64,000 nt of DNA from Nitrososphaerota archaeon (lineage in GTDB: Archaea; Thermoproteota; Nitrososphaeria; Nitrososphaerales; Nitrosopumilaceae), in assembly GCA_028867595.1 (NCBI GenBank), contig JAGWGB010000001.1:73630-137629 (forward strand). The letters are read 5' to 3'. Positions 19,749-42,922 of this stretch are shown in pieces. How positions within the stretch are numbered: position 1 is the first letter of the stretch; every line of letters starts with the position of its first letter. The translations under genes and the position numbers were made by a program. The notes under the pieces are model-generated. The model worked only from the letters and a program-made list of their open reading frames with translations. It had not been told where the DNA came from and did no database searches.

Positions 19749-19789
19749 TAGAACAATCTTCTAGAACAATTCATCATAGAACTTTATAA
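19749..19789 (+). promoter_or_regulatory. gvpA promoter: palindrome TAGAAC-AAT-CTTCTA (19749-19763), further TAGAAC half-sites, TATA box TTTATAA (19783-19789)
   Basis: Read directly from sequence; the TATA box is about 32 nt before the gvpA ATG; half-sites at 19762 and 19777. Confidence 0.65.
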
Positions 19790-36301: not shown

Positions 36302-36460
36302 GTTGTGTTTTGAATATTCACATCAGAAAATATTAAGAGATGGCATCCTTATTATAGAATAATCGTTGCTAACAATGTTCCTCTATGTCTATATGATGAA
36401 TTTCGGAGTACAATACAGATGACTTTATCATCCTATGCAGTCGAGTTGTCAGATTTAAGA

Positions 36461-37498
36461 ATGCGCGCTGCAATGTTTTATGGTCCAAACAATTTGGTTG
36501 TAGAGGAGAAAAAAATGACATATGACAAAAATGATGTCGTGTTAAAAGTGGATGTTTGTGCTGTTTGTGGATACGATTCACGTGTTTATCGCAATGGTCA
36601 CAAAAAAGTCAAACCCCCACTTGTTCTGGGTCATGAGATATGCGGAACTATATTGACAGAAATTAATACAGATTATGGAGTCATAAGATCTGGTACCAGA
36701 GTTGCTGTATCTCCTGTAATACCATGCCTTTCTTGCAAATTATGTTTCAAACATCAGTACAATTTGTGTAACAATCTAAGAGAGATAGGATCTACAGTTG
36801 ACGGAGGATTTGCAGAATATGTAAAAATTCCACAGCAAATAATTAAGATAGGTGGATTAGTCGAGGTTCCTGATAATTTGAAAAGTGAAGAAGCTGCTTT
36901 GCTTGAGCCATTGGCGTGCTGCCTCAATGGATTTTCCCATCTAAAAAAAGTTGGGCCAGAAAGCACAGTCTTGATCATAGGCGATGGTCCAATAGGATTG
37001 CTTCATTTACAGATATCAAAGAAATTATACCATGCAAAAACTGCGGTTGTAGGTAAAATTCCTTCCAGAATACAGAGAGCAAAAGCAATTGGTGCCGATG
37101 AGGTATTCATGTTTGATGATGGAACGGCAAGACAAGTCATGAGTTTTACCGACGGTCATGGCGCAGACCTTGTCATAGTTGCTACCAGTAGCCCCGACGC
37201 ACTAGGTTTTGCTACAAAAGTGGCAGCCAAAAATTCTAACATCAACATATTTAGTGGATTTCCAAATGACAATAGATTCTCAATTGATCCTAACTGGCTA
37301 CATTACAATCAAGTTTCAATTACTGGGAGCTTTAGTTCAACACCAGAAATGCTGCAAAAGGCAGCAAGACTTGCATCTGACGGAAAGATAGACCTCTCAA
37401 AAATAATATCTCATAGATATTCATTAGATAATATCACACAGGCAATTTTAGATACATCAGAATTTCACGGATTGCGTGTCGTCATAGATAGGTTTTGA
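36461..37498 (+). CDS. zinc-dependent polyol/sugar dehydrogenase (MDR family)
   Basis: CGYD, GHE, structural Zn CxxCxxC...C, GDGPIG Rossmann motif; start ATG 36461 (MRAAMFYGP). Confidence 0.9.
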   Translation: MRAAMFYGPNNLVVEEKKMTYDKNDVVLKVDVCAVCGYDSRVYRNGHKKVKPPLVLGHEICGTILTEINTDYGVIRSGTRVAVSPVIPCLSCKLCFKHQYNLCNNLREIGSTVDGGFAEYVKIPQQIIKIGGLVEVPDNLKSEEAALLEPLACCLNGFSHLKKVGPESTVLIIGDGPIGLLHLQISKKLYHAKTAVVGKIPSRIQRAKAIGADEVFMFDDGTARQVMSFTDGHGADLVIVATSSPDALGFATKVAAKNSNINIFSGFPNDNRFSIDPNWLHYNQVSITGSFSSTPEMLQKAARLASDGKIDLSKIISHRYSLDNITQAILDTSEFHGLRVVIDRF

Positions 37499-38316
37499 GG
37501 AGAACGAATTTGGCAAGATTCTTTGATCCGCATATCCACATGTACTCACGAACAACCGACGATTATGTGGCAATGGCAAAAGCAGGAATAGAGGTTGTAG
37601 TACAACCTTCATTCTGGCTTGGCAGCCCGAGAACGCAGGTTGGAACTTTTGAGGATTATTGGGAACATATGATAACATTTGAAACAAAGAGAGCAAAAGA
37701 TTTTGGAATAGAACATTTTGTATGTATCTCTGTCAATCCAAAGGAAGCTACTATTAGACCTCTTGCTACTGACGCCATAGAACCCATGAAGCAAAAATAT
37801 CTGGATAGGCCAAATGTTGTTGCAATTGGCGAGCTTGGTTACAATCTGATAAATGACTTGGAGGAAGAAGTTTTTCTAAAACAGATGGAGATAGCCGCAT
37901 CAAAGGACATGCTAATGATGGTTCATCTTCCCCATACCAACAAAGTGGAAGCAATGAGACGAATTGAAAAAATTTTGCAAAATCATCATTACAACCGAGA
38001 GAAGATACTCATTGATCATAACACAGAGGAGACTATCGAAAAAACTCTAAAACTTGGCCTCTGGGCAGGTCTCTCCGTATACCCTGTCACAAAACTCTCT
38101 CCTGAGAGAGCGACCAAAATTATTCAAAAACATGGTTCCGATCACATAATGATAAACAGTGCCGCAGACTGGGGAGTATCAAATCCACTTAGTGTACCAC
38201 TGACTGCACAAAAGATGAAAAGTGAAGGCGTAAGCTCAGAAGAAATAGAGAAGGCCACCTTGTACAATGCCTATGATTTCTACAAGCAGTCTCCAAGATT
38301 CACTTGGAAGCCTTGA
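37495..38316 (+). CDS. TatD-family hydrolase (EboB-like)
   Basis: 'DPHIH...RTTDDY..MA.AG', 'QPSFWLG.PR', 'AIGELG', 'DHN.EET', 'SAADWGVS.PL'. Confidence 0.88.
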   Translation: MRRTNLARFFDPHIHMYSRTTDDYVAMAKAGIEVVVQPSFWLGSPRTQVGTFEDYWEHMITFETKRAKDFGIEHFVCISVNPKEATIRPLATDAIEPMKQKYLDRPNVVAIGELGYNLINDLEEEVFLKQMEIAASKDMLMMVHLPHTNKVEAMRRIEKILQNHHYNREKILIDHNTEETIEKTLKLGLWAGLSVYPVTKLSPERATKIIQKHGSDHIMINSAADWGVSNPLSVPLTAQKMKSEGVSSEEIEKATLYNAYDFYKQSPRFTWKP

Positions 38317-38337
38317 ATTGCGTCTCAGGGTTTTGAA

Positions 38338-39171
38338 ATGAAGCTTGCTTTTAGTACCAACGCGTTCAAGGCGTATTCTCTTGAAGACTCGATAAAGGAG
38401 ATAGCAGCAATTGGATACAAAGGAGTAGAGTTACTGTGTGATGTACCTCATGCTTATCCACCACATCTTGATGACAAAAAAATACAATCCATAAAAAATC
38501 TAATAACAGATTGCAATATTCAGATATCAAATCTAAATGCATTTACTCTGTATGCCATTGATGATGTGTTCCATCCTTCTTGGATAGAAGAAAATGAAAA
38601 GTCAAGAGAATCAAGGATACAACATACCATAGATTGTATTCAGATGGCAAAAGAATTAGGGGCAAAGAACATATCCACAGAACCTGGTGGGCCGCTAGAT
38701 GGCGTAGACAGGAACAAAATTGCACATCTTGAAAAAACATTTGTCAACGGTTTATTGAAAGCATCAAAGATTGCTGAAAAAGAAGACGTAAAGATTCTTG
38801 TCGAGCCAGAGCCTTTTTTGCTGATAGAAAACTCGTCGCAATTTAAAAGCATGATGAAAAAAGTAAATTCTGAATATGTAAAACTTAATTTTGATATAGG
38901 TCACTTTTTTTGTGTAGACGAGGATCCTGCTCAACTGGTACATGAATTAGTAGATTACACTGAACACTTTCACCTAGCAGACATTAATGAAAACCGAGTG
39001 CATAACCATCTCATACCAGGCCTTGGTGCGATAAATTTTGCCCGAGTCTTCAAGGCAATAGACGATGTTGGCTACAAGGGATTTGTTACAGTGGAGCTTT
39101 ATCCGTATCAATCAAATCCCATAGAAGCGGCTCAAAAATCTTTTGACTATCTCAGAGACATTACCATATGA
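38338..39171 (+). CDS. sugar-phosphate isomerase/epimerase (xylose-isomerase-like TIM barrel)
   Basis: 'VEPEP', 'FDIGH', 'HFHLAD...HNHL.PG.G', 'VELY'. Confidence 0.88.
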   Translation: MKLAFSTNAFKAYSLEDSIKEIAAIGYKGVELLCDVPHAYPPHLDDKKIQSIKNLITDCNIQISNLNAFTLYAIDDVFHPSWIEENEKSRESRIQHTIDCIQMAKELGAKNISTEPGGPLDGVDRNKIAHLEKTFVNGLLKASKIAEKEDVKILVEPEPFLLIENSSQFKSMMKKVNSEYVKLNFDIGHFFCVDEDPAQLVHELVDYTEHFHLADINENRVHNHLIPGLGAINFARVFKAIDDVGYKGFVTVELYPYQSNPIEAAQKSFDYLRDITI

Positions 39172-39231
39172 AATTGTGTACTATTTCATTGCTGCTAATC
39201 CGTCCATACAATTTGTCGAGGCACTTTTTCT

Positions 39232-40116
39232 ATGCTTAGAAAATATTTGCAGTTGGCAAGACTGCCAAATGCATTCACTGCACCAACAAACATCATAGCT
39301 GGCTATTTCATACTAACACCGGTCACCAGTCTCAATTATCTTGACCTAGTAATGCTCATGATATCATCAGTGCTTTTCTATGTTTCAGGAGTCATATTCA
39401 ATGACTATTTCGACATAGAAATAGATAGAAAAGAGAGGCCGTCTAGACCTTTGCCATCAGGTGCAGTATCGAGGCAAAGTGCACTACGGATTGCTCTTGT
39501 GTTAATGGGTTTAGCCATGACGTTTGATTTTTTTGTTTCATGGCAAAGCTTTGCCGTAGCTGTTTTTCTTGCAGGTATGATACTTGCGTATGATTACAGG
39601 TTAAAGCGCAATAAAATTCTCAATCCAGTAACTATGGGCGGATCTAGATTTCTCAACGTAATTTTGGGAGCAAGTCCTGCAATTCAACTTCCGTTAGAAA
39701 CTAATTTCTGGCATCTCATCTTGATCGCCTGCTTTATCTTTGCATATGTTGCTGTCATTGCACTTTTTAGCAGCAAGGAATTAAGCGGAATAAAATCAAA
39801 ACGTCAAATAGCGTTGCTGTTTTCAATCGATTATGGCATTATTGCGTCCATAGGCACTGCAATCTTTCTTGGAATCCTCAAGCCATCAAGTTTCATAATA
39901 CTAGCATCTTTTGCTGTCATCATAAGCCTCATCTTTAGGCAAACTCTTTTGGGTAATGCAGTAACAGTTCAGAATACAATCAAGAATTTGGTAATCTCAA
40001 TAATAGTTCTTGATTGTGTGTTTGTAAGCGGTACTGCAGGATTTGCATATGGTTTACCCACGCTGTTGTTCTTGTTGCCATCAGTTATCTTGTCAAAAAA
40101 ATTCTATGTGACATAG
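39232..40116 (+). CDS. UbiA-family prenyltransferase (EboC-like)
   Basis: 'QLARLPNAFTA', 'NDYFD.EID..ERP.RPLPSG', 'AYD..LK', 'MG..RFLN', multiple TM helices. Confidence 0.9.
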   Translation: MLRKYLQLARLPNAFTAPTNIIAGYFILTPVTSLNYLDLVMLMISSVLFYVSGVIFNDYFDIEIDRKERPSRPLPSGAVSRQSALRIALVLMGLAMTFDFFVSWQSFAVAVFLAGMILAYDYRLKRNKILNPVTMGGSRFLNVILGASPAIQLPLETNFWHLILIACFIFAYVAVIALFSSKELSGIKSKRQIALLFSIDYGIIASIGTAIFLGILKPSSFIILASFAVIISLIFRQTLLGNAVTVQNTIKNLVISIIVLDCVFVSGTAGFAYGLPTLLFLLPSVILSKKFYVT

Positions 40117-40158
40117 GTTGAAATTGAGTAGAAGAACAATGTCAACACAAGGAGACTG

Positions 40159-41508
40159 ATAGACACGGCCTCAAAACATATTGTAGTCATCAACGTAGTA
40201 GGATTAGAACACAAGCATTTGGGTACAGACCTCATACCAAACATTTCAGCACTAGCCGAAAAGGGAGAAAGCGCGAAGATGGAACCTGTATTTCCAGCAG
40301 TAACATGCACTGTTCAGGCAAGTATACTTTCTGGAAAATATCCAAATGAACATGGAATAATATCTAACGGATTGTATGACCGAAGTAACCATTCAGTCTC
40401 ATTTTGGGAACAGGCAAGCTCACTTGTTCAAAGAGAAAGAGTTTGGGATGTTCTAAAAAAAAGATCAGCCAAGACACAATCAAACATAAAGACGGCCGTT
40501 CTTTTTTGGCAAAATACAATGTATGCGAATTCTGATGTCATTGTGACACCAAGACCATTGCACATGGGAGACGGAAGCATGATACAGTGGTGCTATTCAA
40601 AGCCAACGGGGTGGTATGAGGATACTGCAAAATCAATTGGAGAATTCAATCTTGCAACATATTGGGGTCCTATTGCATCATACAAATCAAGTGAATGGAT
40701 AGGCAAGGCAGCAGAATACACCATGGAAAAACTGCGATCAAACTTGATGTTTGTTTACATACCACATGTTGATTATTCTGCTCAAAGGTTTGGCAAAAAC
40801 AGCAATCAGGCGCGCGATGATCTGAAAAAAGCAGACAGTATTGTCGGAAGTATGGTCGAAAAAGCATCTAATCTTGGAATAGGCAGTGACACAGAGTTTC
40901 TAATTCTTTCCGAGTATTCCTTTGATGATGTTTCAGGTGCAATTCCAATAAATCTAAAGCTCAGAGAGGCTGGCTTGCTTGATACAAGAACCATTGGCGA
41001 AAAAGAATACATTGATTTCGAATATAGCAAAGCATTTGCGATGGTAGACCATCAGGTTGCTCATATTTACATCAAAGATGGTTTTATTGACAAAACAAAT
41101 CGAGTTCTCAGAGACATTTCTGGTGTAGAGAGAGTTTTGACAAAGGACGAACAAAAGAAAATGAAGATAGACAACGAAAGAAGTGGAGAACTAATAGCAG
41201 TATCTGCAAAAGACAGATGGTTTAGTTACTATTGGTGGCATGAACCTCAAAAGGCTCCTCCCTTTGCTGGAACTGTAGACATACACCGAAAGCCAGGTTA
41301 TGATCCGGTAGAATTATTTTTCGATAGAGAAAAAAATTGTATACCTCTTGATACAAATTTGATAAAAGGCTCTCATGGAAGGCCTGCAAACTTGGAAACT
41401 GGGGAAGGACTAGCAACATATGTCTCAAATCGCAAATCAGGATTGACAAAAAATTCAAGCATTATCAAATGTGTTGACATTGCAAGTCACCTAGTGAATA
41501 ACTGGTAG
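40159..41508 (+). CDS. alkaline-phosphatase-superfamily nucleotide pyrophosphatase/phosphodiesterase (EboF-like)
   Basis: 'PVFPAVTCTVQAS' catalytic Thr, 'YIPHVDY', 'DHQVAH', 'DIHRKPGYDP.ELF', 'KGSHG'. The frame extends 5' of the track's TTG 40219 to include 'HIVVINVVGL'; the start shown is a candidate ATA and is uncertain. Confidence 0.85.
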   Translation: MDTASKHIVVINVVGLEHKHLGTDLIPNISALAEKGESAKMEPVFPAVTCTVQASILSGKYPNEHGIISNGLYDRSNHSVSFWEQASSLVQRERVWDVLKKRSAKTQSNIKTAVLFWQNTMYANSDVIVTPRPLHMGDGSMIQWCYSKPTGWYEDTAKSIGEFNLATYWGPIASYKSSEWIGKAAEYTMEKLRSNLMFVYIPHVDYSAQRFGKNSNQARDDLKKADSIVGSMVEKASNLGIGSDTEFLILSEYSFDDVSGAIPINLKLREAGLLDTRTIGEKEYIDFEYSKAFAMVDHQVAHIYIKDGFIDKTNRVLRDISGVERVLTKDEQKKMKIDNERSGELIAVSAKDRWFSYYWWHEPQKAPPFAGTVDIHRKPGYDPVELFFDREKNCIPLDTNLIKGSHGRPANLETGEGLATYVSNRKSGLTKNSSIIKCVDIASHLVNNW

Positions 41509-41549
41509 TTACCATAAAGATAAAAAACGAAATCATAGTTAAGACATCA

Positions 41550-42386
41550 TTGGCATTCAAGTACTCTGTAACTCTTTCTTCCTTTAGAAGCATAGAGCCA
41601 ATAGAACAGACATTGGATAGATTGAAGAAACAAGGATTTGATGCCGCAGAGATGTATGGCGAACCAGATAAGATAAACATCAAAGATCTCAAAGAAACTC
41701 TCGATTCACATGGCTTGCCAATTTGTGGAATAACCGGCATGTGGGGAAGAAGCAGCCAAGACGGAGAGAAGAGAAAACTTCTAAGCCAAGATCCAGAACT
41801 TGTAAAACATTCTGAAAATTATGTAAAAAGATGTATTGAGATGTGTCAATATCTTGGAGGCAACGAGATTAACATCTGCCTCTTTGCGGACACCAAAAAC
41901 GATCTTGACGCAAATCACAGCGTAATTTCTGAAGAGCAAAAAAAATCTAAAATGGAAAAAACAATTCCTTTACTATTATCTTTAGCTAGATTTGCTTCAG
42001 ATCATGGCGTAAATTTAATGATTGAACCACTTAACAGGTACAGTACACCCTATTGCAACACCGCACTAGATGCTGCGTACATTGCAAGCAAAATAAATCA
42101 AGAAAATGTAGGAATATTGCTGGATACGTTCCACATGAACATTGAAGAGCCTTCTTTTGAGAAGGCAATACTTGATTCAAAGGATCTTGTACGCCACATG
42201 CATTTTGCTGACAATAACAGAACCATGCCTGGATGTGCCCATATTGACTTTGAATTGATTGTGAAAACCTTACAGAAAATTTCATACGACAAGTATGTGT
42301 CCTTTGAATCAAATTTGTCAGAAGTGAATTACAAATCTGCTACACTTGATGGATTACAGTTTGTTAAAAAGCTAGAAAATACGTAG
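41550..42386 (+). CDS. second TIM-barrel sugar isomerase/epimerase (D-tagatose-3-epimerase/Iol-like)
   Basis: 'IEPLNRY', 'LDTFHMNIEE', 'HMHFADNNR..PG'. Confidence 0.88.
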   Translation: MAFKYSVTLSSFRSIEPIEQTLDRLKKQGFDAAEMYGEPDKINIKDLKETLDSHGLPICGITGMWGRSSQDGEKRKLLSQDPELVKHSENYVKRCIEMCQYLGGNEINICLFADTKNDLDANHSVISEEQKKSKMEKTIPLLLSLARFASDHGVNLMIEPLNRYSTPYCNTALDAAYIASKINQENVGILLDTFHMNIEEPSFEKAILDSKDLVRHMHFADNNRTMPGCAHIDFELIVKTLQKISYDKYVSFESNLSEVNYKSATLDGLQFVKKLENT

Positions 42387-42397
42387 TGACGTTCTCA

Positions 42398-42802
42398 TTA
42401 TCCGACCTTCATTCGTTCCTCAACAATATTTCTATACTTTGGATAGTTTATCGACTCTATTGTTTTGTTAAAGGTCTCAAGAAATAATGTATCCTCAATT
42501 GCCATAAGTAGGTGTGCTGTATGGGCAGGGACGTGTATTATTGTAGGCACATCAATAATTTTGATTTGCTCTTGACCTGTTTTTACATTTTCTTCTCGGT
42601 ATTCTAGTTTACCAGAAATAATGATGTGATCTTGTGCGATTGTATGATAATGCCCCCCGCGAGCAAACCCTTTCTTTATCTCAACAAGGTTGACTTTTTC
42701 ATCACCGTGAGACAAGAAAAAAATCTTACCCCTTGCATCCTCGACTTCTTTTTCAATTCTCATGCTTATGTCACTTTTATTACCGTTATCACAAATAACC
42801 AA
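42398..42802 (-). CDS. cupin-domain protein (nucleotide-sugar isomerase-like)
   Basis: 'DARG.I', 'RGGHYH' and 'VP..TAH' cupin motifs. Confidence 0.75.
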   Translation of the reverse strand: MVICDNGNKSDISMRIEKEVEDARGKIFFLSHGDEKVNLVEIKKGFARGGHYHTIAQDHIIISGKLEYREENVKTGQEQIKIIDVPTIIHVPAHTAHLLMAIEDTLFLETFNKTIESINYPKYRNIVEERMKVG

Positions 42803-42922
42803 GTCTAATAGCTATAAATTTCAATATCTAAAAAAAAGATTGCATGAGTGTTATAGAACTATTTACTACGAAATTTTACTTGTAAAAACTTACCATTGTT
42901 TTAAAAAATAGACTCGATTAAT

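What the first reader, a model, noticed from the sequence alone, without database searches (positions are those of the whole stretch)
36461..42802. ebo-like operon lacking EboA and any cyclase, with a Zn-dehydrogenase, second epimerase and cupin
TatD, TIM-barrel isomerase, UbiA and phosphodiesterase genes match the ebo-type cluster, which is linked to prenylated cyclitol synthesis and metabolite export in cyanobacteria. The usual cyclitol source (EboD or inositol-phosphate synthase) and EboA are not seen. An MDR dehydrogenase and a second epimerase could instead remodel inositol or a polyol. Its position next to the pel-like genes suggests a prenyl-cyclitol lipid carrier or anchor for the EPS.
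Basis: partly seen in the sequence, partly recalled or inferred. Interest (0 to 1): 0.65.

Follow-up and report, generated by a model that had tools for sequence, protein, structure and literature searches.

The report
Archaeal stripped-down ebo-type biosynthetic cluster
A soil ammonia-oxidising archaeon (Nitrosotalea) carries a six-gene accessory cluster that is a lineage-specific, cyclase-less variant of the bacterial "ebo" pathway (recently tied to the algal signal thallusin), so it probably makes a still-unknown prenylated sugar-ring-derived small molecule; it is not demonstrably part of the neighbouring exopolysaccharide genes.

Summary
Six co-directional, tightly spaced genes (36419-42386, + strand) encode a Zn-MDR dehydrogenase, a TatD hydrolase, a short TIM barrel, a UbiA prenyltransferase, an AP-family phosphodiesterase and a second TIM barrel.

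TatD and the phosphodiesterase are clear EboB and EboF counterparts (42% and 39% identity, and the only hits in the genome). The UbiA lies in a monophyletic thaumarchaeal clade inside the EboC-like family, far from the genome's DGGGPS-like, heme O and MenA-like paralogs.

EboA, EboD and a true EboE are absent genome-wide. The "cupin" is an unconserved convergent ORF.

The block TatD-TIM-UbiA-PDE is colinear with EboA/D/E-less clusters on Bacillus cereus plasmids and on Haloferax volcanii pHV3. Those clusters carry an inositol-3-phosphate synthase and a second TIM barrel (TIMa). Here MDR + TIM2 stand in their place, and two core MIPS genes lie elsewhere.

The module is accessory: 40 of 301 genomes in the class and 6 of 41 Nitrosotalea.

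The pel link fails. Nine pel-positive Nitrosotalea lack the module, the adjacency is genus-specific and rearranged, and the island's operator is missing from its promoter.

The verdict is a new variant of a known kind, with product unknown.

The parts
36302..36418 (.). Divergent intergenic region between the hexapeptide acyltransferase gene (- strand) and the MDR gene; the presumed promoter of the cluster.
   Evidence: Sequence read. It has A/T-rich TATA-like stretches. The island operator TAGAAC-AAT-NTTCTA does not occur here at 2 or fewer mismatches. No promoter was mapped.
36419..37498 (+). Zn-dependent medium-chain dehydrogenase (MDR); the thaumarchaeal-specific partner of the cluster.
   Evidence: Pfam ADH_N + ADH_zinc_N. 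The best NCBIfam hit is IolM scyllo-inosose 3-dehydrogenase at 164 bits, below the cut-off of 450. The best PDB hits are 4ej6, threonine dehydrogenases and galactitol-1-P dehydrogenase. Both Zn sites and a GxGxxG motif are visible in the sequence. It is adjacent to the cluster in 39 of 80 related loci, usually divergently oriented.
37495..38316 (+). TatD-family metal hydrolase; EboB counterpart.
   Evidence: 42-45% identity to Nostoc, Adhaeribacter, Streptomyces and Bacillus EboB/TatD, at E about 1e-83. It is the only hit in the genome. The HxH motif is present.
38338..39171 (+). Short xylose-isomerase-like TIM barrel ('TIM1', TIMb type).
   Evidence: 53% identical to the barrel located between TatD and EboC on B. 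cereus plasmid p1, and 40% to Haloferax pHV3 TIMx. It scores only 37.5 bits on the EboE model and 24% identity at E 0.003 to Nostoc EboE.
39232..40116 (+). Membrane UbiA-family prenyltransferase; EboC-like in the broad sense.
   Evidence: NF035940 EboC at 191 bits (cut-off 250); the next-best family, SCO3242, scores 115 bits. 34% identity to Nostoc EboC. It belongs to a monophyletic thaumarchaeal clade (96/96 support) within the EboC-like family. It has 8 predicted TM helices and keeps the NDxxDxxxD...ERPxRPLPSG motif, Tyr50 and Arg139.
40165..41508 (+). Alkaline-phosphatase-superfamily phosphodiesterase; EboF counterpart. The likely start is a near-cognate ACG at 40165; the first canonical start is TTG at 40219.
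   Evidence: 39-42% identity to Nostoc EboF and the Bacillus PDE, at E 1e-108 to 1e-120. It is the only hit in the genome. The conserved N-terminal strand is encoded in frame upstream of the TTG. The orthologues' ATG aligns with ACG, and an AGGAG lies 10 nt upstream. The ACG is identical in four independent metagenomes.
41550..42386 (+). Second TIM barrel ('TIM2'), of the ketose-3-epimerase / IolO type.
   Evidence: IolO at 157 bits and psicose 3-epimerase at 129 bits. The best PDB hits are TM0416 and D-allulose/tagatose 3-epimerases. It follows the PDE in 44 of 80 related loci. It has no counterpart in the Bacillus or Haloferax clusters (17-20% identity).

Best explanation
This is an accessory biosynthetic module of terrestrial ammonia-oxidising archaea. 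It is an archaeal variant of the ebo pathway family.

Shown:
- Three of the four ebo 'core' enzymes are present: EboB (TatD), an EboC-like UbiA, and EboF (phosphodiesterase). They keep the colinear order TatD-TIM-UbiA-PDE that is also found in EboA/D/E-less clusters of Bacillus cereus plasmids, haloarchaeal megaplasmids and other Nitrososphaeria.
- The gene set is kept together, or at least kept in the genome, across Nitrosotalea and Nitrososphaeraceae.
- Its distribution is patchy.

Inferred:
- A sugar- or cyclitol-phosphate precursor, most plausibly myo-inositol 3-phosphate from the core MIPS, is oxidised by the Zn-MDR dehydrogenase and epimerised or isomerised by TIM2.
- That pair replaces the TIMa barrel and the in-cluster MIPS of the sister clusters.
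- TIM1, TatD and the phosphodiesterase, all predicted to be soluble and cytoplasmic, then convert the keto-cyclitol into the acceptor.
- The membrane UbiA attaches an isoprenoid chain to that acceptor, giving a membrane-associated or exported prenylated cyclitol-derived metabolite (a meroterpenoid).

The product's identity is unknown. The module is a neighbour of the pel-like EPS genes, not a component of them.
For: Homology:
- EboB to TatD 42-45%, EboF to PDE 39-42%, EboC to UbiA 34-38%. Each is the sole hit in the genome.

Family placement of the UbiA:
- Its best family is EboC at 191 bits.
- A Planctomycetota representative (P0183) scores 202 bits on the same model. Planctomycetota is a phylum whose EboC was validated by deletion and assay in bioRxiv 10.64898/2026.05.21.724671. 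A sub-cut-off score therefore does not exclude EboC function.
- The careful tree puts the thaumarchaeal clade (96/96 support) inside the EboC-like family, far from the genome's own DGGGPS-like and heme O synthase paralogs. The MenA-like paralog was likewise distant in the 147-row tree.

Synteny:
- All 80 related loci are Nitrososphaeria, and the only recurrent neighbours are MDR, TatD, TIM1, PDE and TIM2.
- Where the cluster is split, the PDE is elsewhere in the genome in 8 of 9 cases.

Sister architectures:
- B. cereus p1: TIMa-TatD-TIMb-EboC-PDE-MIPS.
- H. volcanii pHV3: TatD-TIMx-UbiA-TIMy divergent from MIPS-PDE.
- Other Nitrososphaeria genera: TIMa-TatD-TIMb-UbiA-PDE.
- TIM1 is 53% identical to Bc_TIMb.
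- No TIMa, EboE, EboA or cluster-type MIPS is found anywhere in this genome.

MDR and TIM2:
- Their best hits are enzymes of one inositol catabolic pathway, IolM and IolO/TM0416.
- Homologues of the pair are adjacent in a Metabacillus sugar/polyol locus.

Other points:
- Accessory status: 40 of 301 genomes in the class, 14 of 67 genera, 6 of 41 Nitrosotalea.
- Catalytic motifs are intact, and only the UbiA has TM helices.
Against: - No product, transcript or enzyme activity has been observed.
- The true EboE, whose deletion abolishes thallusin in Stieleria, is absent. The chemistry may therefore differ from canonical ebo.
- The inositol origin is only permitted, not specifically supported. Both MIPS paralogs are core genes present in essentially all Nitrosotalea, whether or not they have the module. 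They are only 21-26% identical to the cluster-borne MIPS of Bacillus, Haloferax and Streptomyces.
- The MDR and TIM2 hits to IolM and IolO are far below equivalog cut-offs.
- The Metabacillus pair is only about 30% identical, and in Halalkalicoccus the adjacent MDR is a different subtype.
- In this genome the PDE lacks a canonical start codon ahead of its conserved first strand, so its integrity depends on near-cognate initiation.
- The UbiA backbone phylogeny is unresolved.
Confidence: 0.62

Rival explanations
1. The cluster makes the same end product as canonical ebo clusters (saccharoquinoline/thallusin). It reaches the keto-cyclitol intermediate by a different front end, and the rest of the chemistry (condensation with L-aspartate, then farnesylation of a hydroxyquinaldate) is unchanged.
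For: - EboB, EboC-like and EboF counterparts are present.
- The preprint already accepts an eboD-less inositol route in thallusin-producing Actinomycetota and an eboA-less set in Planctomycetota.
- Tyr50 and Arg139 align with a Tyr and an Arg that are conserved across the EboC-like family. They probably correspond to the Tyr56/Arg145 that PMC9235831 proposes for acceptor binding in Ubi-297. The exact residue mapping was not checked, because the Maribacter sequence was not in hand.
Against: - Every validated producer keeps EboE, and deleting eboE abolishes thallusin. Here no EboE exists in the genome.
- The thaumarchaeal UbiA forms its own clade, at only 34% identity to canonical EboC.
- No thallusin data exist for any archaeon, Bacillus or haloarchaeon.
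Confidence: 0.15
2. One reading: the module makes a prenyl-cyclitol lipid carrier or membrane anchor that serves the adjacent pel-like exopolysaccharide system.
For: - The module lies inside the pel/GH135/GSDH island in the window, and pel genes are adjacent to it in at least four other Nitrosotalea loci (L010, L011, L014 and G133).
- All 6 Nitrosotalea genomes with the ebo-like PDE also have PelF.
Against: - Nine of 15 PelF-positive Nitrosotalea lack the module.
- Nitrososphaeraceae and other genera carry the module with no pel genes in the flanks.
- The relative order and orientation of the two modules differ between genomes.
- The island operator occurs at the GSDH promoter and, with 2 mismatches, at the pel-side promoter, but not at the ebo-like promoter.
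- Bacterial Pel needs no such lipid (established knowledge of the Pel system).
Confidence: 0.06
3. The module builds a structural archaeal membrane lipid or head-group variant (for example an ether-linked polyprenyl cyclitol) rather than a diffusible secondary metabolite.
For: - A UbiA-family enzyme sits next to cyclitol-type enzymes in an organism with isoprenoid membranes.
- All the soluble enzymes are cytoplasmic and the prenyltransferase is membrane-embedded.
Against: - The patchy, accessory distribution (6 of 41 Nitrosotalea, 14 of 67 genera) is unlike a core lipid pathway.
- The same block occurs in Bacillus cereus plasmids, where no isoprenoid membrane lipids exist.
- The genome has a separate DGGGPS-like paralog.
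Confidence: 0.1
4. The genes are a sugar, inositol or polyol catabolic or salvage operon, and the UbiA gene is an unrelated passenger.
For: The MDR, TIM1 and TIM2 resemble IolM, IolE and IolO-type catabolic enzymes. Homologues occur in ABC-transporter sugar utilisation loci.
Against: - The UbiA is the most constant member. It is flanked by TatD-TIM and PDE in archaea, Bacillus and haloarchaea.
- The archaeal loci contain no transporter or regulator.
- Ammonia-oxidising archaea are chemolithoautotrophs (established knowledge).
- TatD and the PDE are specific EboB and EboF counterparts.
Confidence: 0.03

Closest known systems
EboA/D/E-less 'two-TIM' ebo-like clusters: Bacillus cereus plasmid p1 (NZ_CP045607.2, TIMa-TatD-TIMb-EboC-PDE-MIPS) and Haloferax volcanii DS2 pHV3 (NC_013964.1, HVO_RS01025-01055: TatD-TIM-UbiA-TIM divergent from MIPS-PDE). 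Both are uncharacterised.
   Same: - The colinear TatD-TIMb-UbiA-PDE block, with identities to the Bacillus proteins of 45%, 53%, 38% and 42%.
- No EboA, EboD or EboE.
- Short (about 277 aa) TIM barrels in place of the 380-410 aa EboE.
   Different: - The window has no TIMa/TIMy barrel and no cluster-type MIPS anywhere in the genome.
- It has instead a Zn-MDR dehydrogenase and a ketose-3-epimerase-like TIM2, which those clusters lack.
- Other Nitrososphaeria genera do keep the Bacillus order TIMa-TatD-TIMb-UbiA-PDE.
Canonical eboABCDEF operon (Bacteroidota, Cyanobacteria, eustigmatophyte plastids; Yurchenko 2016, PMC5133447). It has been linked to scytonemin precursor export (PMC6282210) and to thallusin biosynthesis (bioRxiv 10.64898/2026.05.21.724671).
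   Same: - EboB and EboF orthologue-level counterparts.
- An EboC-like prenyltransferase with the family's motifs.
- A xylose-isomerase-fold barrel in the cluster.
   Different: - No EboA.
- No EboD (DEI synthase).
- No true EboE.
- Extra MDR and TIM2.
- The UbiA is below the NCBIfam EboC cut-off and sits in its own clade.
- The host is an archaeon.
Actinomycetota-type ebo cluster with inositol genes (Saccharomonospora in the preprint). The example seen here is Streptomyces sp. NBC_00028 plasmid NZ_CP108294.1: MIPS - SCO3242-family PT - TIM - EboA - EboB - EboE - EboF.
   Same: It lacks eboD and uses an inositol-phosphate-type front end with a small TIM-barrel isomerase. That barrel is 25% identical to TIM1 at E 1e-24.
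   Different: It retains EboA and EboE and carries MIPS in the cluster. Its prenyltransferase groups with the Haloferax one, not with the thaumarchaeal clade.

Membership tests
Canonical ebo operon (eboABCDEF) | EboA (PF28008 / NF035938) present | tested here: not met
   The NF035938 search of the whole genome gave no match, but the model also rang in no control genome. tblastn with Nostoc, Adhaeribacter and Streptomyces EboA gave no hit.
Canonical ebo operon (eboABCDEF) | EboB: TatD-family hydrolase orthologue | tested here: met
   42-45% identity over about 260 aa, at E about 1e-83. It is the single hit in the genome.
Canonical ebo operon (eboABCDEF) | EboC: UbiA-like prenyltransferase of the EboC family (NF035940 at 250 bits or more) | tested here: inconclusive
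   191 bits, below the cut-off of 250 but by far the best family. The protein lies inside the EboC-like superclade but in a separate thaumarchaeal clade. A representative of the Planctomycetota EboC clade also scores below the cut-off, at 202 bits.
Canonical ebo operon (eboABCDEF) | EboD: DHQS-like sugar-phosphate cyclase (DEI synthase) | tested here: not met
   No PF01761 match in the 96.5%-complete genome, while 11 of 14 control genomes ring. tblastn with Nostoc and Adhaeribacter EboD gave no hit.
Canonical ebo operon (eboABCDEF) | EboE: the 380-410 aa TIM-barrel protein (NF035939 at 250 bits or more) | tested here: not met
   TIM1 scores 37.5 bits and is 24% identical at E 0.003 to Nostoc EboE. 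Streptomyces and Deinococcus EboE have no hit in the genome.
Canonical ebo operon (eboABCDEF) | EboF: AP-superfamily phosphodiesterase orthologue | tested here: met
   39-42% identity over about 400 aa, at E 1e-100 to 1e-120. It is the single hit in the genome. Caveat: a non-canonical start codon.
Two-TIM, EboA/D/E-less ebo-like cluster (Bacillus cereus plasmid / Haloferax pHV3 type) | Colinear TatD-TIMb-UbiA-PDE block | tested here: met
   Same order and strand. TIM1 is 53% and 40% identical to the barrel in the same position in Bacillus and Haloferax.
Two-TIM, EboA/D/E-less ebo-like cluster (Bacillus cereus plasmid / Haloferax pHV3 type) | Second paralogous barrel TIMa/TIMy | tested here: not met
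   TIMa queries hit only TIM1 in this genome. TIM2 is 17-20% identical to TIMa/TIMy. TIMa is present in other Nitrososphaeria genera.
Two-TIM, EboA/D/E-less ebo-like cluster (Bacillus cereus plasmid / Haloferax pHV3 type) | Cluster-borne inositol-3-phosphate synthase | tested here: not met
   There is none in the cluster. The genome's two MIPS genes lie elsewhere, are 21-26% identical to the cluster-type MIPS, and are core genes that do not track the module.
Thallusin/saccharoquinoline producers | Production of thallusin, or farnesylation of hydroxyquinaldates by the prenyltransferase | not testable with these tools
   This needs LC-MS and enzyme assays. Only sequence-level resemblance to EboC is available.
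Housekeeping UbiA enzymes (DGGGP synthase, heme O synthase, MenA) | The UbiA groups with one of these families | tested here: not met
   The genome has separate heme O synthase-like paralogs (two), a DGGGPS-like paralog and a MenA-like paralog. The cluster UbiA is far from the DGGGPS-like and heme O synthase paralogs in both trees, and from the MenA-like paralog in the 147-row tree. The module is present in only 40 of 301 genomes in the class.
Pel-type exopolysaccharide system | Obligate co-occurrence and co-regulation with pelF/pelG | tested here: not met
   Nine of 15 PelF-positive Nitrosotalea lack the module. There is no pel adjacency outside the genus. The operator is absent from the module's promoter.

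The most novel reading that the evidence does not exclude
Soil ammonia-oxidising archaea, and by extension haloarchaea and Bacillus cereus-group plasmids, make a thallusin-like, metal-chelating prenylated quinoline or cyclitol signal through an EboE-independent route. In the Nitrosotalea/Nitrososphaeraceae version, a Zn-dehydrogenase plus a ketose-epimerase-type barrel replace the TIMa barrel and the dedicated MIPS. This would put a picomolar-active cross-kingdom morphogen or metallophore class into one of the most abundant archaeal groups in soil. It would also show that EboE is not a universal core enzyme of the pathway.
Probability: 0.18. Interest if true: 0.8.

Novelty: new variant of a known kind. 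Interest (0 to 1): 0.5.

Why it matters
- Secondary metabolism. Little secondary metabolism is attributed to ammonia-oxidising archaea (my own knowledge of the field, not checked here). A conserved, accessory, ebo-type module would give them a prenylated small-molecule product of unknown role, such as a signal, a metal chelator or a membrane-associated carrier.
- Pathway logic. The archaeal, Bacillus and haloarchaeal versions form a natural experiment. They keep EboB, EboC and EboF but dispense with EboA, EboD and EboE, which helps separate the front end (cyclitol supply) from the conserved back end.
- Experimental access. The haloarchaeal version sits in a genetically tractable model (Haloferax volcanii pHV3), and cultured Nitrosotalea carry the thaumarchaeal version, so the question can be addressed in the laboratory.

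Tried and rejected
1. 'The host is a bacterium because of LpxD.' Rejected. The hexapeptide acyltransferase hit is generic, and all relatives of the UbiA are Nitrososphaeria.
2. 'The EboC-like UbiA is the missing archaeal menaquinone prenyltransferase.' Rejected. The genome has five UbiA paralogs, including a MenA-like one with the DxxDxxxxxD-type motif, and the module's distribution is patchy.
3. 'The second MIPS paralog (C83:55886-56905) is the dedicated cyclitol source.' Rejected as a specific link, because both paralogs are core genes in essentially every Nitrosotalea.
4. 'The TDH-like MDR next to the TIMa-type clusters of other genera is a cluster member.' Probably not. Its orthologue (48% identity) sits elsewhere in this genome, on C149.
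5. RNA evidence. Two candidate runs of unknown type gave only shallow short contigs spread evenly over coding and intergenic DNA, which is uninformative.
6. Cupin confirmation. The Pfam hit is weak, the NCBIfam scan found only a chance-level unrelated match, the PDB search found nothing, and the AF2 model is at pLDDT 38, so no fold search was run.
7. The listing of cluster members on 10 representatives gave almost no names.
8. The sigma-70 promoter and intrinsic terminator scan does not apply to archaea and showed no enrichment.
9. The Bacillus PQQ-dependent sugar dehydrogenase upstream of its cluster shows no similarity to the window's GSDH-domain protein.

Full report
**What is there**

The region holds six co-directional ORFs on the + strand:
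- 36419-37498: a Zn-dependent medium-chain dehydrogenase (MDR).
- 37495-38316: a TatD-family hydrolase.
- 38338-39171: a xylose-isomerase-like TIM barrel (TIM1).
- 39232-40116: a UbiA prenyltransferase.
- 40219-41508: an alkaline-phosphatase-superfamily phosphodiesterase (PDE).
- 41550-42386: a second TIM barrel (TIM2).

Gaps between genes are -4, 21, 60, 102 and 41 nt. Only the UbiA has predicted transmembrane helices (eight). The metal and cofactor motifs of the other five enzymes are intact.

It has cupin-like RGGHYH...PAHTAH motifs. Sequence and structure methods do not confirm a cupin:
- Pfam Cupin_7 at E 0.007 only.
- No PDB hit.
- An AF2 model at pLDDT 38.

It is absent from all 80 related loci, although a 46%-identical homologue lies about 3 kb from the cluster in one marine-type relative. 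I do not count it as part of the cluster.

**Host**

The LpxD-like hit upstream is misleading. The nearest relatives of the UbiA are Nitrosotalea (about 65% identity) and Nitrososphaeraceae (about 50%). The window lies in a 1.69-Mb, 96.5%-complete genome. Earlier notes of this scan also place it in Nitrosotalea. Near-identical sequence is present in at least 20 soil and related metagenome runs from 11 studies.

**Is it ebo-related?**

I fetched a canonical locus from Nostoc punctiforme (eboD on the opposite strand, then eboA-B-C-E-F) and a partial one from Adhaeribacter.

| Ebo protein | Window counterpart | Result |
|---|---|---|
| EboB | TatD | 42-43% identity, E 1e-83 |
| EboF | PDE | 39% identity, E 1e-108 |
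| EboC | UbiA | 34% identity, E 1e-37 |
| EboE | TIM1 | 24% identity, E 0.003 (marginal) |
| EboA | none | no hit in the genome |
| EboD | none | no hit in the genome |

The EboB, EboF and EboC counterparts are each the only hit in the whole genome. Family searches agree:
- No PF01761 DHQ_synthase in the genome, although 11 of 14 control genomes ring.
- No EboA domain.
- TIM1 scores 37.5 bits on the EboE model, against a cut-off of 250.

The UbiA scores 191 bits on the EboC model (cut-off 250), and the next-best family, SCO3242, scores 115 bits.

An exhaustive representative search plus trees gave the following:
- The thaumarchaeal sequences form one clade (96/96 support) inside an EboC-like superfamily.
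- That superfamily also holds the canonical Cyanobacteria/Bacteroidota clade (364 bits), a Planctomycetota clade, and a Haloferax + Streptomyces SCO3242 clade.
- The genome's own DGGGPS-like and heme O synthase paralogs are remote in both trees. The MenA-like paralog was included only in the 147-row tree and is remote there too.

A representative of the Planctomycetota clade (P0183) scores only 202 bits. The preprint validated EboC from planctomycetes (Stieleria) by deletion and enzyme assay. The NCBIfam cut-off is therefore too strict to decide membership in EboC in the broad sense.

**Conservation**

A scan of named genomes with an alignment of the UbiA returned 224 relatives. The best 80 were kept, and all are Nitrososphaeria. 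Clustering every ORF in those loci shows that the only recurrent neighbours are these five (many loci are truncated):

| Neighbour | Loci (of 80) |
|---|---|
| TIM1 | 56 |
| TatD | 50 |
| PDE | 47 |
| TIM2 | 44 |
| MDR | 39 |

Everything else nearby is housekeeping. The usual layout is the MDR divergent from TatD-TIM1-UbiA-PDE-TIM2. In the window the MDR has been turned to the same strand and overlaps TatD by 4 nt.

Some Nitrososphaeraceae split the cluster. In 8 of 9 such genomes the PDE is encoded elsewhere, so the gene set is retained as a unit.

The module is accessory:
- A TatD orthologue occurs in 40 of 301 genomes of the class and 14 of 67 genera.
- The PDE occurs in 6 of 41 Nitrosotalea.

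**Closest architectures**

tblastn against plasmids found EboB- and EboF-like genes in several clusters:

| Source | Gene order |
|---|---|
| Streptomyces plasmid | MIPS - SCO3242-type PT - TIM - EboA - EboB - EboE - EboF |
| Deinococcus plasmid | EboD - hyp - EboB - EboE - UbiA - EboF |
| Bacillus cereus p1 | TIMa - TatD - TIMb - EboC - PDE - MIPS |
| Haloferax volcanii pHV3 | TatD - TIMx - UbiA - TIMy, divergent from MIPS - PDE |

The Bacillus and Haloferax clusters lack EboA, EboD and EboE, like the window. TIM1 is 53% identical to Bc_TIMb and 40% to Hv_TIMx, the barrels in the same position. Other Nitrososphaeria genera carry exactly the Bacillus order TIMa-TatD-TIMb-UbiA-PDE, which I verified after an earlier scan note suggested it.

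The Nitrosotalea/Nitrososphaeraceae version differs in three ways:
- It has no TIMa anywhere in the genome.
- It has no cluster-type MIPS. Its two MIPS genes are 21-26% identical to the cluster-borne ones.
- It has instead the MDR and TIM2, which have no counterpart in the sister clusters.

**What the MDR and TIM2 suggest**

Their best characterised relatives are IolM (scyllo-inosose 3-dehydrogenase) and IolO/TM0416 (5-keto-L-gluconate epimerase). To my knowledge these are two enzymes of the Thermotoga inositol catabolic pathway. Other close relatives are ketose 3-epimerases. All of these hits are far below equivalog cut-offs.

Homologues of the pair (29% and 31% identity) are adjacent on a Metabacillus plasmid. 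They sit in a locus with a LacI regulator, an ABC transporter and Gfo/Idh/MocA oxidoreductases, typical of sugar/polyol utilisation. This modestly supports a dehydrogenase-then-epimerase action on a polyol or cyclitol.

The specific inositol origin is not proven. Both MIPS paralogs are core genes present in essentially all Nitrosotalea, with or without the module.

**Pel link**

In the window and in the complete Nitrosotalea genome G133, the module is embedded in the pel/GH135/GSDH island. The pel block is on the other side and the other strand in G133, L010 and L011, and it is arranged differently again in L014.

- PelF occurs in 15 of 41 Nitrosotalea and the ebo-like PDE in 6.
- All 6 of those are pel-positive, but 9 pel-positive genomes lack the module.
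- Outside the genus the module has no pel neighbours.
- The island's 15-nt operator has perfect sites at 19749, 25370, 32329 and 32592 and a 2-mismatch site at 42854 (the pel side). It has none in 36302-36460.

The EPS-carrier idea is therefore not supported. The nested co-occurrence is best explained by co-inheritance of an accessory island.

**Literature**

Ebo clusters are known from several studies:
- Yurchenko 2016 (PMC5133447).
- A proposed role in scytonemin precursor export (PMC6282210).
- EboD is a DEI synthase, and an EDB variant repels nematodes (reviewed in PMC12904256).
- Ubi-297/EboC farnesylates hydroxyquinolines (PMC9235831).
- A 2026 preprint ties the core eboB, C, E and F genes to thallusin. 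It reports eboD-less Actinomycetota with ino genes, eboA-less Planctomycetota, and hits in 'two archaeal phyla'. The archaeal hits came from a loose MMseqs screen, and the phyla are named only in a figure.

I found no paper that describes the archaeal clusters.

**Side observation on the PDE start**

The conserved first strand (HIVVINVVGLEHKH) is encoded in frame upstream of the first canonical start, TTG 40219. No ATG, GTG or TTG follows the upstream stop. The orthologues' ATG aligns with ACG at 40165-40167 (with ATA in L027), and a conserved AGGAG lies 10 nt upstream. The ACG is identical in four independent metagenome assemblies at depth 9-24. Either the gene initiates at a near-cognate codon or this species makes an N-terminally truncated enzyme.

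**Verdict**

- The cluster is a new variant of a known kind. It is a thaumarchaeal, EboA/D/E-less ebo-type module in which MDR + TIM2 replace TIMa and the dedicated MIPS.
- The product, the transcripts and the enzyme activities are unknown.

Noticed in passing
window 40132-40221: The phosphodiesterase gene has no canonical start codon ahead of its conserved N-terminal strand. The orthologues' ATG aligns with ACG (40165-40167), and with ATA in locus L027. A conserved AGGAG lies 10 nt upstream. The ACG is identical in four independent soil metagenomes. This points to near-cognate initiation in an archaeon, or to a truncated enzyme.
   Followed up: partly
G000:C83:55886-56905 and G000:C22:9724-10791 (outside the window): There are two inositol-3-phosphate synthase paralogs, only about 32% identical to each other. 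Both are core genes in essentially all 41 Nitrosotalea genomes sampled. The role of the shorter (339 aa) paralog is unknown.
   Followed up: partly
window 42398-42802 (- strand); L097:15237-15608: A small beta-rich ORF with cupin-like RGGHYH...AH motifs. A 46%-identical homologue lies about 3 kb from the ebo-like cluster of a distant Nitrosopumilaceae genome. It is not found in the 80 closer loci, and its fold is not confirmed.
   Followed up: partly
window 42854-42868: A 2-mismatch copy (TAGAACTATTTACTA) of the island operator TAGAAC-AAT-NTTCTA lies in the intergenic region between the cupin-like ORF and the TPR/pel genes. Perfect copies flank the GSDH and GH135 genes (32329, 32592).
   Followed up: no
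L082, L083, L084, L086, L088 and similar Nitrososphaeraceae loci: There is a second, paralogous mini-cluster: a cinnamyl-alcohol-dehydrogenase-like MDR divergent from UbiA-PDE-TIM2, with no TatD or TIM1 nearby. Its UbiA is about 35% identical to the window's. Some genomes may therefore carry two ebo-like sets.
   Followed up: no
L032-L035, L042, L050, L053, L087 (Nitrososphaera loci): In these loci the UbiA is followed by a secreted right-handed beta-helix (pectate-lyase/NosD-like) protein of about 458 aa instead of PDE-TIM2. The PDE is encoded elsewhere in the genome.
   Followed up: partly
L095 (Haloferax volcanii DS2 pHV3, NC_013964.1:242688-249367): A model haloarchaeon carries an uncharacterised TatD-TIM-UbiA-TIM / MIPS-PDE cluster next to a multicopper oxidase and a very large PVC-type heme-binding protein. 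It offers a tractable system for this pathway family.
   Followed up: no
L100 (G133:C1:951630-955379): In the complete Nitrosotalea genome, the GSDH-domain and GH135 (Spherulin-4) domains that are separate genes in the window appear fused in one 1249-aa ORF adjacent to the ebo-like cluster.
   Followed up: no
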